Shown here piece by piece: positions 60,001 through 64,000 of a stretch of DNA of 64,000 nucleotides; position 1 is the first letter of the stretch; every line of letters begins with the position of its first letter. The DNA is from a bacterium (GTDB taxonomy: Bacteria; DRYD01): positions 1-64,000 of the forward strand of contig JBCNVB010000025.1 of the NCBI GenBank assembly GCA_039630415.1. The letters are read 5' to 3'. Made by a program: the position numbers.

Positions 60001-63000
60001 ACGTAAATTTTAACCCTCAAACAATTAAAGAAGATTCGATGAGGATAATAAAAAACATTATAAATGAAGTAGCTTATACTGAATATGCTTTTGCTAGGGG
60101 AAATATCCAGGTAAGATGGGGTATAAATATCGAACACATAACATATAGTAACTTAAGCCTTTCAGAAGAAGTTATAAAAATGGCAAAATTAAGGTTAGAA
60201 AACGTTAAATATTTACTTCCGCCACCGGTTAGGCGGAATATAAATCAAACCGGATTAAAAAACTAAAAAACTAAAAACTATGGAAACTGAATTAAAAAAA
60301 GATCAGAACATAAAAGAACAAATCCTAAAAACAGTTATTTCTCAGATAGAGAAAGAATTTGGAAAAGGTAGCATAATGAAGCTAGGACAGCAAGAAAGAT
60401 TAAATATTGAAGCTATATCTACAGGTAGTTTATCGTTGGATTTGGCAATGGGAGTTGGTGGGTTTCCCAGAGGTAGAATATCCGAAATTTTTGGTCAAGA
60501 GTCATCGGGTAAAACTACTCTAGCTTTAAGTGCGATAGCAAACGCTCAAAAAGCTGGAGGTATAGCCGCTTTTATAGATGCAGAACACGCTCTAGACCCA
60601 GAATATGCTCGAAAAATCGGTGTAGACGTAGATAACTTGTATATTTCGCAACCAGATAGTGGCGAACAAGCACTCTCCATTGTTGAAATGCTAGCTAAAA
60701 GCAATGCTGTAGATATCATTGTTATAGATTCTGTTGCTGCACTCGTTCCTCAAGCAGAAATAGAAGGCAACATAGGTGACCAATTCATAGGCTTACAAGC
60801 AAGATTAATGTCACAAGCTCTACGAAAACTAACATCCATAGTAGGTAAATCAAAAACAGCAGTAATATTCATAAATCAAGTAAGAGAAAAAGTAGGTATA
60901 ATGTTCGGTAATCCAGAAACCACACCAGGCGGTAGAGCACTTAAATTCTACGCAAGCGTAAGAGTAGAACTAAGAAAAATAGATAACATTAAAAAAGGGG
61001 AAGTTAGTATAGGAGCAAGAGTAAAAGCAAAAGTAGTAAAAAATAAACTCTCACCACCTTTCAAAGAAGCTCAATTCTCAATCATCTTTGGTAAAGGTAT
61101 AGATAAAATATCAGAGATAGCTGACCTGGCAACCGAAATGAATCTAATCTCAAAAACTGGTAGCTGGTACTCCATCGGAGATGAAAAAATAGGACAAGGT
61201 AGAGAAAAACTCATCGAATACTTAGAAAACAATCCATCACTACTTATAGAACTAGAAAGAAAAATATATGAACACCTAAAACAAACAGAGTAACCCATGA
61301 GTAACATAAGAGCTTTTATAGCATTAAACCCTCCCTATCAAACTAAAAATTTCATAACCGTACAACTATTTAATCTCAAGCCCAATTTTAATTTTAGTGA
61401 TATCAAATGGACAGAAACAGAGAATTACCATCTAACATTCCTTTTCTTTAAATCCATAGATCAAGCTCAAATACTGTCTTACTTTGAAAAGTTACAAGAA
61501 TACTTAAAAGATCTTGAATCACAAAATCTTTCTATCTGTTCTACACTGGGATTCTTTAAAAATAAAGATGCTATAAAGGTAATTTATTTGAAAGTTGAGC
61601 CTGAAGAATTTGTACAAGAGATTTATCAGAGAATAAAAAAAGTATTTAGTTTTCACAAATTTGAAGAAAAATTTGTTCCGCATATAACAATTGGAAGAGT
61701 AAAAAGAAACCTTAGCTTAGATAAGGTGCAAATTTTAGAGAACTATAGGATTGAACCTGTAATTTTCAAAGCTCAAGAGATAAGCTTATTTAAGAGTACC
61801 CTAACTCCACTTGGACCTATCTACGATATAATAAAAACGATTACTCTAAAGAACAGTACAAAATGAATAAAAAGAGACTATTAGGGATAGTTGATTATCT
61901 GATTAAAAGTTACAAAGCTGGTTCGAGCACTTTGGAAATAGTAGAAAACTTACCAATATCCAATAAAGAGATTGTAAAGGCTGAGTTAGCAAATAGGAAT
62001 TCTTTATCTTCTGCTCTTAAAAAAGCTAACATACTTCCCTCGCATGTAGTTTATCTATTGGAAGCTGGGGAAAAAAGTGGAAAAGTTCCAGAAATACTTC
62101 AATCTTATCAAAAAATCCTTGAAAACCAAATCAAAATCGAAGCACAAATACAAGGTTATAAAAATTACCTCATGTTTATAAGCTTTGTTTTTCTATTTGG
62201 AATAATTATCTTCTACTTCATTTTTAATAATGTTATGTTACCTTTACTTGAAGATAGCCCAACAAAGCAAGGATCCTTGATAGGTATAATAAGAATAGTT
62301 AAAGATTTGCTTAATTCGTTAACCGTGGTTTTTGTTTTCTTATTAGTAATTCTTTTTAATATGCTTCTCAGTTTTAGAAACTTAGTTCTCGATATGTTTG
62401 AGTATTACATTTTAGGTAAACCTTATAGAAATCTTGCTTTTTCACAGATTATGACAGTATGGGGAAATTTGATATCTTCAGGTATATCAATTCCATTGTC
62501 CTTATATGTATCTGTTTCTACTCTGGAAAACTCACTAATAAAAGAGAAAATTAACTCCATCTTTTCTACTTTAACTAACAATTACACCCAGATAAGTAAT
62601 GAGATAATAAAGGAGATAGTTTTACTATTTCCAGAGGGAAATTTTCTAGTAGGTTCAATAACCAAAGGAACCCTAGACCAGGACTTAATATCCCTATCAG
62701 AAAGAGTTGTAGAAGAATCAACAAAAGACCTAGAAAAAAGAATAAGAGCAATAATGAGTATTCTAGTTACTTTAAGCCTAGTAATAGTTGGAGCACTTAT
62801 TGTTATAAGTTTCTTATCCATTTATGCGCCTTTAATAGAACAGCTTACAGGATCATGATTGCAGATATTTTAAGTGATAAAAGATTTATAGTTGTTTTTA
62901 TAATTACCTTCTTTATATACTTTTCTGGCTCTGCAGCTGCTTCCATAAGATTTGCAGGTATAAAAACCAAACTCTTAAATACCTCCTATTCTCTGGCCAA

Positions 63001-64000
63001 TGTAATTTTTCTAATAGTTAGACTATCTAACTTACTTCAAACTCCTTTCCTAGGCTCTATGGTTGACATAGCTTACAAAGAAAATTCACTGGATTTACTC
63101 AGGATAAAGATACATTTGATAATACTCGCAAGCACTTTAGGATCAATAATAGGGATATTTTTCTTCTCAACTTCAGAAATAATCTTTCGCAAATGGGTAG
63201 AGTTATTCGATAGGAAAAAAAGTGTACTTTCTACCATCGCCTATGCACTTAGTTTCAAAACTATAATTTTTATAATAAAGTCCCTTACGATACCTAAGTT
63301 TTATTTGAAAAAAGAATATTTAAGAAGAGTTCCGAGAGTTGTTTTCTTTTCGTGTGTTATAATTGGCGCTTTTTGGACTACAGGAGTACTATCAGCAATA
63401 TATGCGAGTGTTATAGTTCCGGAATACGCAAGAACAGCTACTATCCTTTCAGGTATAGTCAATGGAGTAGCAACTATTCTTTTTACAATATTCCTTGATC
63501 CAATAGTAGCAAACATAACAGATAAGGTATACAATAACCAAGAAAACATTGAATATCTATACAACGTCATGTGGGTTAACCTAGTAGGAACAGTATTGGG
63601 AACTATTCTAGCACAAATAGTATTTCTACCAGGAGCAATAGTTATAGCATACATAACTACTTTATTTTCAAAAATATAAAAAACCAGTATGCTGAGAAGA
63701 TTAAGGAAAAACAGAAAAATAATAAATCTAGTTTCGAATGTATTTATCCATCCTCAGAACTTTATTTATCCCTTTTTTATCATAGAGGGTAAAAAAATTA
63801 AGCAAGAAATCCCTTCTATGAAAGGAATCTATAGGCTATCAATTGATTATGTTCTAAAGGAAATTGAAAAATGTTTAGAACTAGGAATAGGTAACTTTAT
63901 ACTCTTTGGAGTTGAGCATAGGAAAGATGAGAAAGGAAGTTGGGCTTATAAAAGAGAAGGGATAATACCCAAAGCCATTAGGAAAATAAAACAAACATTT

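What a model noticed while it worked through the whole genome (the two positions that open the first line are those of the whole stretch)
62855..63679. Amj, not MurJ, is the only known-type lipid II flippase of a whole diderm phylum
These diderm, peptidoglycan-making bacteria have no MurJ, while Amj, known as the back-up flippase of Bacillus subtilis and rare in bacteria, is a single-copy gene in every genome. Amj is thus probably the primary lipid II flippase here.
Evidence so far: MurJ model: no intact match in 11 genomes (one stop-riddled 27-bit fragment in G009), 12 of 14 controls ring. Amj in 11 of 11 at E 1e-60 or better (126); family share in bacteria 1.7% (10). MraY, MurG, FtsW/RodA and PBPs are present (5-7). 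Recent papers call MurJ conserved in all peptidoglycan producers (PMC13661225, abstract, 127); search 131 found no Amj-only lineage.
(Added by a program. Inside this text positions count along the whole contig: contig position 1 is position 1 of the stretch shown here. "Call 12" and the like, gene names such as g00115 and contig names such as C1 are that model's own, and its searches are not shown. The text may have been shortened before it was handed on; [...] marks where a part breaks off. The agent that wrote the report below was given it as the finding of a first reader that could run no searches.)

Follow-up and report, generated by a model that had tools for sequence, protein, structure and literature searches.

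The report
Amj flippase without MurJ in Calescibacterota
All available genomes of a small group of hot-spring bacteria make cell-wall building blocks but lack the standard transporter (MurJ) that carries them across the membrane, and all keep the rare back-up transporter Amj, which is probably their main one.

Summary
Confirmed, with corrections. Window 62855-63679 is an intact amj gene (274 aa, PF10997). It occurs in 11 of 11 genomes of the phylum, Calescibacterota. It follows the genus tree and is under strong purifying selection. Three MurJ-type models find no MurJ, nor does a scan of all 104 multi-pass membrane proteins of G000. The G009 'fragment' is a Wzx cut by a contig end. The lipid II pathway, SEDS, PBPs, BamA and LpxC are present. 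Corrections: the 'phylum' is 11 draft genomes (71-90% complete) in three genera. Amj is not the only universal candidate: a single MATE (11 of 11) and an MsbA-like ABC (5 of 5) are conserved too, but the MATE lacks MurJ hallmarks and diverges faster. New here: the sister clade includes natural Amj-Amj fusions with both halves intact, which supports the published guess that Amj works as a dimer. Amj as main flippase: about 0.6, inferred and untested. The scan's earlier notes mention Amj in other genomes, not an Amj-only lineage.

The parts
62855..63679 (+). amj, lipid II flippase of the Amj (DUF2837) family, 274 aa. About six membrane helices in a 3+3 internal repeat; family-conserved R32, R56, P64, N203-G204, D215-P216, D223
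   Evidence: PF10997 E 1.3e-66; AF2 pLDDT 97, pTM 0.92; conservation over 121 sequences; hhalign of N half against C half P 56%, E 1e-4
61863..62858 (+). PilC/T2SSF-like gene; its stop overlaps the amj start (ATGA), so probably the same transcript. Same order in all 7 genomes of genus g1, not in g2 or g3
61297..61866 (+). 2',3'-cyclic phosphodiesterase (ThpR/LigT-like), operon context only
60280..61293 (+). recA, operon context only
63689..64000 (+). hemB (ALAD), 9 nt after the amj stop; runs off the window; context only
2044..3594 (-). murD, in-window part of the lipid II pathway that supplies the substrate
   Evidence: TIGR01087 284 bits, cut-off 212
47657..48343 (-). short, divergent lpxC (lipid A pathway), in-window evidence for a diderm envelope
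   Evidence: PF03331 93.7 bits, profile 43-267; ORF

Best explanation
Calescibacterota build lipid II with a dispersed but apparently complete Mur/MraY/MurG pathway and have no MurJ. Amj, inherited vertically since the ancestor of the sampled genomes, does most lipid II flipping: certainly the share used by the class A PBP, and probably also the share used by FtsW/RodA. Mechanism (inferred): two six-helix Amj chains pair in parallel into a 12-helix, two-lobed carrier. Conserved arginines (R32, R56) and a polar helix face (S46/N49/N59/Q62, T194/S199/N203/T207, D215/D223) take the pyrophosphate-sugar head group through a central cavity by alternating access. Shown: gene presence and absence, vertical descent, selection, and natural tandem fusions. 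Known from others: B. subtilis Amj flips lipid II in E. coli. Inferred: that this ortholog flips lipid II, that it is the main route, the dimer and the cavity.
For: Amj is in 11 of 11 genomes. No MurJ was found by PF03023, TIGR01695 or TIGR02900. In G000, 104 of 104 multi-pass proteins were scanned and the only MOP-fold ones are one MATE and two Wzx. Chance of missing a single-copy gene in all 11: 1.6e-9 if independent, 0.003 using the best genome of each genus. Pathway in G000: MurA, MraY, FtsW, RodA and a class A PBP; MurD, MurE, MurF and MurG; a likely MurC. Across genomes: MurB 5 of 5, Ddl 4 of 5, MurG 5 of 5, class A PBP 9 of 10, class B PBPs 5 of 5. Diderm markers: Omp85 9 of 11, LpxC 5 of 5, LptF/G and MlaE in G000. 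The phylum's Amj is one clade (SH 99) that splits by genus and family. dN/dS for G002-G003 is 0.056 for Amj against 0.25 MATE, 0.23 aPBP and 0.13 MsbA; identity G000-G010 is 41% Amj against 28% MATE. In G010, amj is divergent from an mreD-like-pbp2 pair. 8 of the best 150 homologs are 549-612 aa Amj-Amj fusions; 16 of 16 halves keep R32, R56, P64, D215, P216 and D223. The fusion folds as one unit, pTM 0.84. Literature: Amj rescues E. coli murJ loss and works in the colicin M assay (PMC4683061, PMC4790310, passages); a B. subtilis murJ amj double is lethal at normal UppS levels although other MOP proteins remain (PMC12096821, PMC4790310).
Against: All genomes are drafts (71-90% complete, 20-280 contigs) and closely related; 10 of 11 are one family. 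The genome search loses weak matches: TIGR02900 missed G000's Wzx, which full hmmscan scores at 34 bits. The exhaustive membrane-protein scan was done only in G000. A MATE is equally universal (11 of 11), and so is an MsbA-like ABC in the 5 tested. B. subtilis grows without murJ and amj when UppS is over-expressed (PMC12096821, results and discussion read), so neither family need be the only route. Gene context is mostly uninformative: recA-thpR-pilC-amj-hemB in g1; convergent with a pilin and uppP in g2. The window protein departs from the family majority at several sites, including H87 (R in 69%), S105 (P in 84%) and C167 (N in 72%). The class A PBP is more conserved to G010 (48%, partial sequence) than Amj is. 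Peptidoglycan itself has never been shown chemically here.
Confidence: 0.58

Rival explanations
1. SEDS route: FtsW and RodA flip the lipid II they polymerise. Amj serves only the class A PBP or relieves carrier-lipid sequestration, so it is accessory even here.
For: FtsW and RodA are present in G000. PMC12096821 (results and discussion read) shows that B. subtilis lacking murJ and amj grows with extra UppS and proposes this division of labour. A class A PBP is present in 9 of 10 genomes tested, which would explain keeping Amj.
Against: SEDS are universal, yet MurJ is essential in E. coli and other species (PMC4990322, passages). The rescue needs artificial UppS over-expression. Amj is under strong selection in a 1.4-1.9 Mb genome.
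Confidence: 0.17
2. The universal single-copy MATE (G000:C12:34707-36056), or the MsbA-like ABC, flips lipid II. Amj is redundant with it or carries another lipid-linked sugar.
For: The MATE is in 11 of 11 and belongs to the same MOP superfamily as MurJ. The MsbA-like ABC is in 5 of 5. Relaxed MOP and ABC flippases can replace MurJ (WzxC variants, 10.1101/260661 abstract; Wzk, PMC4990322 passages).
Against: The MATE has no PF03023 or TIGR01695 match; its best families are PF01554 and TIGR00797. Its closest solved structure is the Aquifex protein Aq128, and Atlas structure neighbours are all MATEs, TM 0.87-0.89 over 427 of 449 residues. It has 11-12 hydrophobic segments, no room for TM13-14, an acidic residue and no arginine in TM1. 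It evolves faster than Amj. The single ABC is needed for lipid A, since LpxC and LptF/G are present, and its best model is MsbA.
Confidence: 0.14
3. MurJ exists but was missed: lost in binning or assembly, or too divergent for the models.
For: No genome is closed. The first-look filter of the genome search loses weak matches. Monoderm MurJ (YtgP) is hard to find by sequence (PMC13661225, passages). Eleven of the 104 G000 membrane proteins match no Pfam family.
Against: Other single-copy genes are recovered at 9-11 of 11. All 10 bacterial controls ring with PF03023, including Thermotoga, Thermus, Lactococcus and Bacillus. Of the proteins with no usable family match, only three exceed 430 aa. 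Two have long polar N-termini and about 7 hydrophobic segments; one lies on a 6-kb contig and looks Wzy-like by eye.
Confidence: 0.07
4. A Wzx O-antigen flippase moonlights as the lipid II flippase.
For: G000 has two Wzx. WzxC variants can replace MurJ (10.1101/260661, abstract).
Against: None was found in G004, G005, G007 (90% complete) or G010. Copies from different genomes are 21-24% identical. All 3 g2 copies are split at a T9 run.
Confidence: 0.04

Closest known systems
Bacillus subtilis Amj (YdaH; Pfam PF10997), the 'alternate to MurJ' lipid II flippase (Meeske et al. 2015; not held; known to me through PMC4683061, PMC4790310 and PMC4990322 passages)
   Same: Same family (225 bits), same size, about six membrane helices, conserved intramembrane arginines and aspartates.
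   Different: In B. subtilis it is a SigM-induced back-up beside MurJ/YtgP in a monoderm (PMC4990322, PMC11081497). Here no MurJ was found, the cell is a diderm, and the gene sits in a housekeeping-type string of genes.
MurJ (MviN/YtgP; PF03023, TIGR01695)
   Same: Same proposed job; the inferred Amj dimer would give a similar 12-helix, two-lobed, cationic cavity.
   Different: No sequence match. No MOP structure is among the 50 best VIA rows for the monomer or the fusion (inconclusive). MurJ is called conserved in all peptidoglycan producers (PMC13661225, abstract and discussion passages).
H. pylori Wzk and E. coli WzxC variants (substitute lipid II flippases)
   Same: Show that cells can live without MurJ by using another flippase.
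   Different: Those are promiscuous back-ups in organisms that still have murJ; here the gene seems absent from the whole sampled lineage.
MFS-fold carriers, including the glycolipid flippase LtaA (6s7v)
   Same: The Amj-Amj fusion model aligns over both halves with MFS chains (LAT4 Z 8.8, rmsd 4.7, 300 residues; LtaA Z 5.7, rmsd 5.2, 269 residues). Amj has a 3+3 helix repeat.
   Different: The Z-scores are within the range common for helical bundles, identity is about 10%, and Foldseek finds nothing at E<=0.001. This is a likeness of architecture only.

Membership tests
Amj (PF10997) | Profile match over the curated cut-off across the whole domain | tested here: met
   225 bits against 27, profile 2-253 of 253; Atlas first hits all Amj, TM 0.92
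Amj (PF10997) | About 270 aa with six predicted membrane helices | tested here: met
   274 aa; AF2 gives six long helical stretches plus short cytoplasmic helices, pLDDT 97; hydropathy finds 6-7 segments
Amj (PF10997) | Family-conserved polar residues kept | tested here: met
   R32, R56, P64, N203, G204, D215, P216, D223, G249 and P259 kept; H87, S105, C167 and S185 differ from the majority
Amj (PF10997) | Rescues E. coli murJ loss and flips lipid II in the colicin M assay | not testable with these tools
   Shown for the B. subtilis protein only (PMC4683061, PMC4790310, passages)
Amj (PF10997) | Works as a dimer (published hypothesis) | tested here: inconclusive
   Eight natural tandem fusions with intact halves; fusion model pTM 0.84 from 14 sequences; no two-chain prediction was obtained
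MurJ (tested on the universal MATE, G000:C12:34707-36056) | PF03023 or TIGR01695 match | tested here: not met
   Only PF01554 and TIGR00797-type matches at E<=1
MurJ (tested on the universal MATE) | 14 membrane helices, with TM13-14 forming the lipid groove (PMC13661225) | tested here: not met
   449-484 aa, 11-12 hydrophobic segments; matches 12-helix MATE models over 427 of 449 residues
MurJ (tested on the universal MATE) | Arginine triad in the cavity (E. coli R18, R24, R270; PMC4790310) | tested here: not met
   No arginine is conserved in TM1, which carries D/E23 in 8 of 9; only R283 could correspond to R270. Judged from the alignment, not from a structure
Diderm envelope | BamA, lipid A and Lpt genes | tested here: met
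   Omp85 9 of 11, LpxC 5 of 5 (67), LptF/G and MlaE in G000 (32); earlier called 'likely gram negative' (PMC4791363, passage)
Peptidoglycan producer | Complete lipid II pathway and polymerases | tested here: met
   MurA, MraY, FtsW, RodA, class A PBP; MurD, MurE, MurF, MurG (MurA-TIGR, MurF, MurG and RodA score below their equivalog cut-offs); MurC inferred from PF01225 in a separate 507-aa frame; MurB; Ddl; class B PBPs
Peptidoglycan producer | Peptidoglycan shown chemically | not testable with these tools
   Only draft genomes were available here

The most novel reading that the evidence does not exclude
Calescibacterota, and possibly the Eremiobacterota-type relatives that carry a fused Amj-Amj gene, have built their walls without MurJ since a common ancestor. 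Amj there is the sole, essential lipid II flippase and works as a two-lobed dimer of 3+3-helix units, MFS-like in layout. That would be a second, independent, self-sufficient solution to lipid II transport, and the fused and thermophilic versions would be ready-made objects for the first Amj structure.
Probability: 0.33. Interest if true: 0.82.

Novelty: new variant of a known kind. Interest (0 to 1): 0.63.

Why it matters
MurJ is described as conserved in all peptidoglycan-making bacteria (PMC13661225) and is an antibiotic and phage-lysis target. Which proteins really flip lipid II is still argued (PMC12096821). A lineage that has SEDS proteins, a class A PBP and Amj but no MurJ is a natural experiment: Amj looks like a housekeeping gene there, not a stress back-up. 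No Amj structure is in the PDB by sequence. Hot-spring orthologs and natural single-chain Amj-Amj fusions give practical material to test the dimer idea and the roles of the conserved arginines. The limit is that the lineage is small and is known here only from draft genomes.

Tried and rejected
PF14667 hits in 3 of 11 genomes are spurious and lie in mannose-1-phosphate guanylyltransferase-like ORFs. The weak PF01943 hits in G004 and G009 are below cut-off and not in flippases. Two further MOP genes in G010 (C63, C197) are MATEs; the C197 one was not found with this query in 4 other genomes. Wzm-type PF01061 was found in 1 of 5. My own Wzx and MATE profiles found nothing new in G000, but they are narrow and do not detect each other. 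Fold searches gave no clear relative: Foldseek had 0 hits at E<=0.001 for monomer and fusion; VIA best Z was 8.2 and 8.8. Long metagenome contigs (1.08 Mb, L179) are not held for whole-record search. No RNA holder was listed. Sigma-70 promoter scan: 14 sites against 22 expected. A recA search in viral contigs was of no use. Meeske 2015 is not held; its distribution figure and supplements may already list genomes with Amj but no MurJ, and I could not see them. Literature searches listed no paper on an Amj-only lineage or on Amj fusions; I saw listings and abstract starts, and most subscription papers are not in the library. I could not search genomes outside this phylum, so how rare the Amj-only state is remains untested.
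Full report
1. The gene. The window is G000:C18:1-64000 of a 1.40-Mb draft genome, 89% complete. At 62855-63679 (+) lies an intact 274-aa ORF that matches Pfam Amj over the whole profile at E 1.3e-66. It overlaps the stop of a PilC-like gene and is followed 9 nt later by hemB, in the order recA-thpR-pilC-like-amj-hemB. A named record titled Ca. Calescibacterium sp. holds a 70%-identical Amj in the same gene order, so the phylum is Calescibacterota.

2. Distribution. Amj is over the cut-off in 11 of 11 genomes held for the phylum; of 14 control genomes only B. subtilis rings. These 11 are drafts, 71-90% complete: seven in genus g1, three in g2, and one 73%-complete genome in a second family. 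'Whole phylum' therefore rests on about three independent lineages. In a tree of 136 rows (121 single Amj, G010's Amj and the halves of 7 fusions; quick method, SH-aLRT only) the phylum's proteins form one clade (99) that splits into g1, g2 and the second family, as vertical descent would give. Nei-Gojobori dN/dS for one pair, G002-G003, is 0.056 for Amj, 0.25 for the MATE, 0.23 for the class A PBP and 0.13 for the MsbA-like ABC; the G000-G007 pair was saturated for three of four genes. Identity of G000 to G010 is 41% Amj, 48% class A PBP (partial), 36% MsbA-like (partial) and 28% MATE.

3. Absence of MurJ. PF03023 gave matches in 2 of 11 genomes at E<=1, none intact; all 10 bacterial controls ring. 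TIGR01695 matched 1 of 11 at 20 bits against a cut-off of 235.55. TIGR02900, used as a stand-in for monoderm YtgP/SpoVB-type flippases, matched only MATE genes in 2 of 11. Its best Pfam model is MurJ at 26.6 bits, under the cut-off. For G000 I picked all 104 ORFs with at least 5 hydrophobic segments and 180 aa and scanned 104 of 104 on Pfam at E<=1. The only MOP-superfamily proteins are one MATE and two Wzx. Eleven match no family; with one further protein that has only a weak match, three exceed 430 aa, and none looks like a 12-14-helix carrier other than a Wzy-like one (judged by eye). Caveat: the genome search has a loose first look that missed G000's Wzx with TIGR02900, although full hmmscan gives 34 bits. 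A very divergent MurJ is thus excluded well only in G000. The chance of losing a single-copy gene from all drafts is 1.6e-9 if independent and 0.003 counting only the best genome of each genus; systematic mis-binning is not covered by either figure.

4. The cell needs a flippase. G000 has MurA, MraY, FtsW, RodA and a class A PBP. Its four PF08245 hits are MurE, MurD, MurF and FolC, and a separate 507-aa frame with a strong PF01225 match is the likely MurC. MurG is in 5 of 5 genomes tested but under the equivalog cut-off. MurB is in 5 of 5 (91), Ddl in 4 of 5 (90), a class A PBP in 9 of 10 (37, 120; G001 not tested) and class B PBPs in 5 of 5 (38). Outer-membrane markers: Omp85 9 of 11 (30), LpxC 5 of 5 (67), LptF/G and MlaE in G000 (32). 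PMC4791363 (passage) already called Calescamantes likely Gram-negative.

5. Rival carriers. Wzx: found in 7 of 11, none in G004, G005, G007 or G010. Full-length copies from different genomes are 21-24% identical, and all three g2 copies are split at a T9 run. It cannot be the common solution. It matches TIGR00797 and not MurJ models (62), is nearest to Aquifex Aq128 in the PDB (43), matches MATE models over its whole length (114), has 11-12 hydrophobic segments (89), and has an acid rather than arginines in TM1 (49). It fails the MurJ hallmarks given in PMC13661225 and PMC4790310 (passages), though that does not prove it cannot flip lipid II. MsbA-like ABC: single copy in 5 of 5 (40), best model MsbA (62), most simply the lipid A flippase; the H. 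pylori ABC Wzk can replace MurJ (PMC4990322, passages). SEDS: PMC12096821 (parts 1-2 of 4 read: abstract, results, discussion) reports that B. subtilis grows without murJ and amj when UppS is over-expressed, and proposes that MurJ/Amj feed class A PBPs while SEDS flip for themselves. Under that model Amj would still be the only MurJ-equivalent here, but not the only route.

6. Context. The neighbours differ by genus. In G010, amj is divergent from an mreD-like gene (weak, E 0.27) and pbp2. In g2 it converges with a pilin-like gene and uppP. In g1 it follows recA-thpR-pilC. One of three contexts points to the cell wall; this is weak support.

7. How Amj may work. AlphaFold2 with 121 sequences gives an all-helical model, pLDDT 97, pTM 0.92. 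The two halves align to each other (hhalign P 56%, E 1e-4, 78 columns), suggesting a 3+3 repeat. Conserved polar residues lie within the long helices: R32, S46, N49, R56, N59, Q62; T194, S199, N203, T207, D215, D223. A profile search of 1.84 billion representatives found 690 relatives at E<=0.001; 8 of the best 150 are 549-612-aa proteins with two full Amj domains. One cluster is named Ca. Eremiobacteraeota; most of the others carry no name. Their N halves and C halves each form a clade, inside the sister group (99) of the Calescibacterota proteins, which indicates one old duplication. All 16 halves keep R32, R56, P64, D215, P216 and D223. The halves are joined end to start, so they have the same orientation, and the fusion model has pTM 0.84. 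It aligns over both halves with MFS carriers at Z up to 8.8, within the range of chance for helical bundles. That Amj dimerises was already hypothesised (PMC4790310, passage, citing Meeske 2015); the fusions are new support as far as my searches reach. No two-chain prediction was obtained. No solved Amj relative was found by sequence.

8. What is known. [quoted passage not shown] C. difficile lacks Amj and has MurJ (PMC12157513, passage). PMC13661225 calls MurJ conserved across all peptidoglycan producers. Searches listed no Amj-only lineage; PMC13721041 and PMC12622048 (passages) added nothing. The original Amj paper and its supplements were not available, and I could not survey other phyla, so 'first such lineage' is not established.

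9. Verdict. Amj as main lipid II flippase: 0.58. This is a new variant of a known kind: a known back-up family in a lineage without its usual primary partner. Interest 0.63.

Noticed in passing
P0032-P0036, P0038-P0040: Natural single-chain Amj-Amj fusions of 549-612 aa, one cluster named Ca. Eremiobacteraeota. Whether their genomes hold MurJ is unknown.
   Followed up: partly
L191:1393-2711 (G003), L192:1470-2827 (G001), L101 (G002): An orphan wzx between a NifU-like gene and prepilin peptidase is split into two frames at a T9 run in all three g2 genomes; possibly slippage or phase variation rather than decay.
   Followed up: partly
G000:C12:34707-36056 (L152): Aq128-like MATE kept in 11 of 11 small genomes; in g1 it lies between genes I judged by eye to be endonuclease V and RNase HII. 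Substrate unknown.
   Followed up: partly
window 47657-48343 (-): LpxC is short and divergent in genus g1 (profile starts at 36-43, no ATG/GTG/TTG at the 5' end), but full length in g2.
   Followed up: no
G000 contigs C6, C10, C16, C18, C23: mraY, ftsW, murG, murD, murE and murF lie apart from each other: the division and cell-wall gene cluster is dispersed.
   Followed up: no
G000:C17:12626-15695 (L132:11614-14683): Two adjacent orphan proteins (578 and 434 aa) with polar N-termini and glycine-rich hydrophobic helices, no usable family match; they lie beside murA-mreB on the other strand.
   Followed up: no
G000:C5:157897-159702 and C5:186146-191970: A DUF5693 protein and two large YfhO-like membrane proteins next to lptF/G suggest further lipid-carrier-dependent surface glycosylation.
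   Followed up: no
window 59069-60266: An 88-aa protein with a LAB_N match overlaps a divergent MTHFR-like gene just upstream of recA.
   Followed up: no
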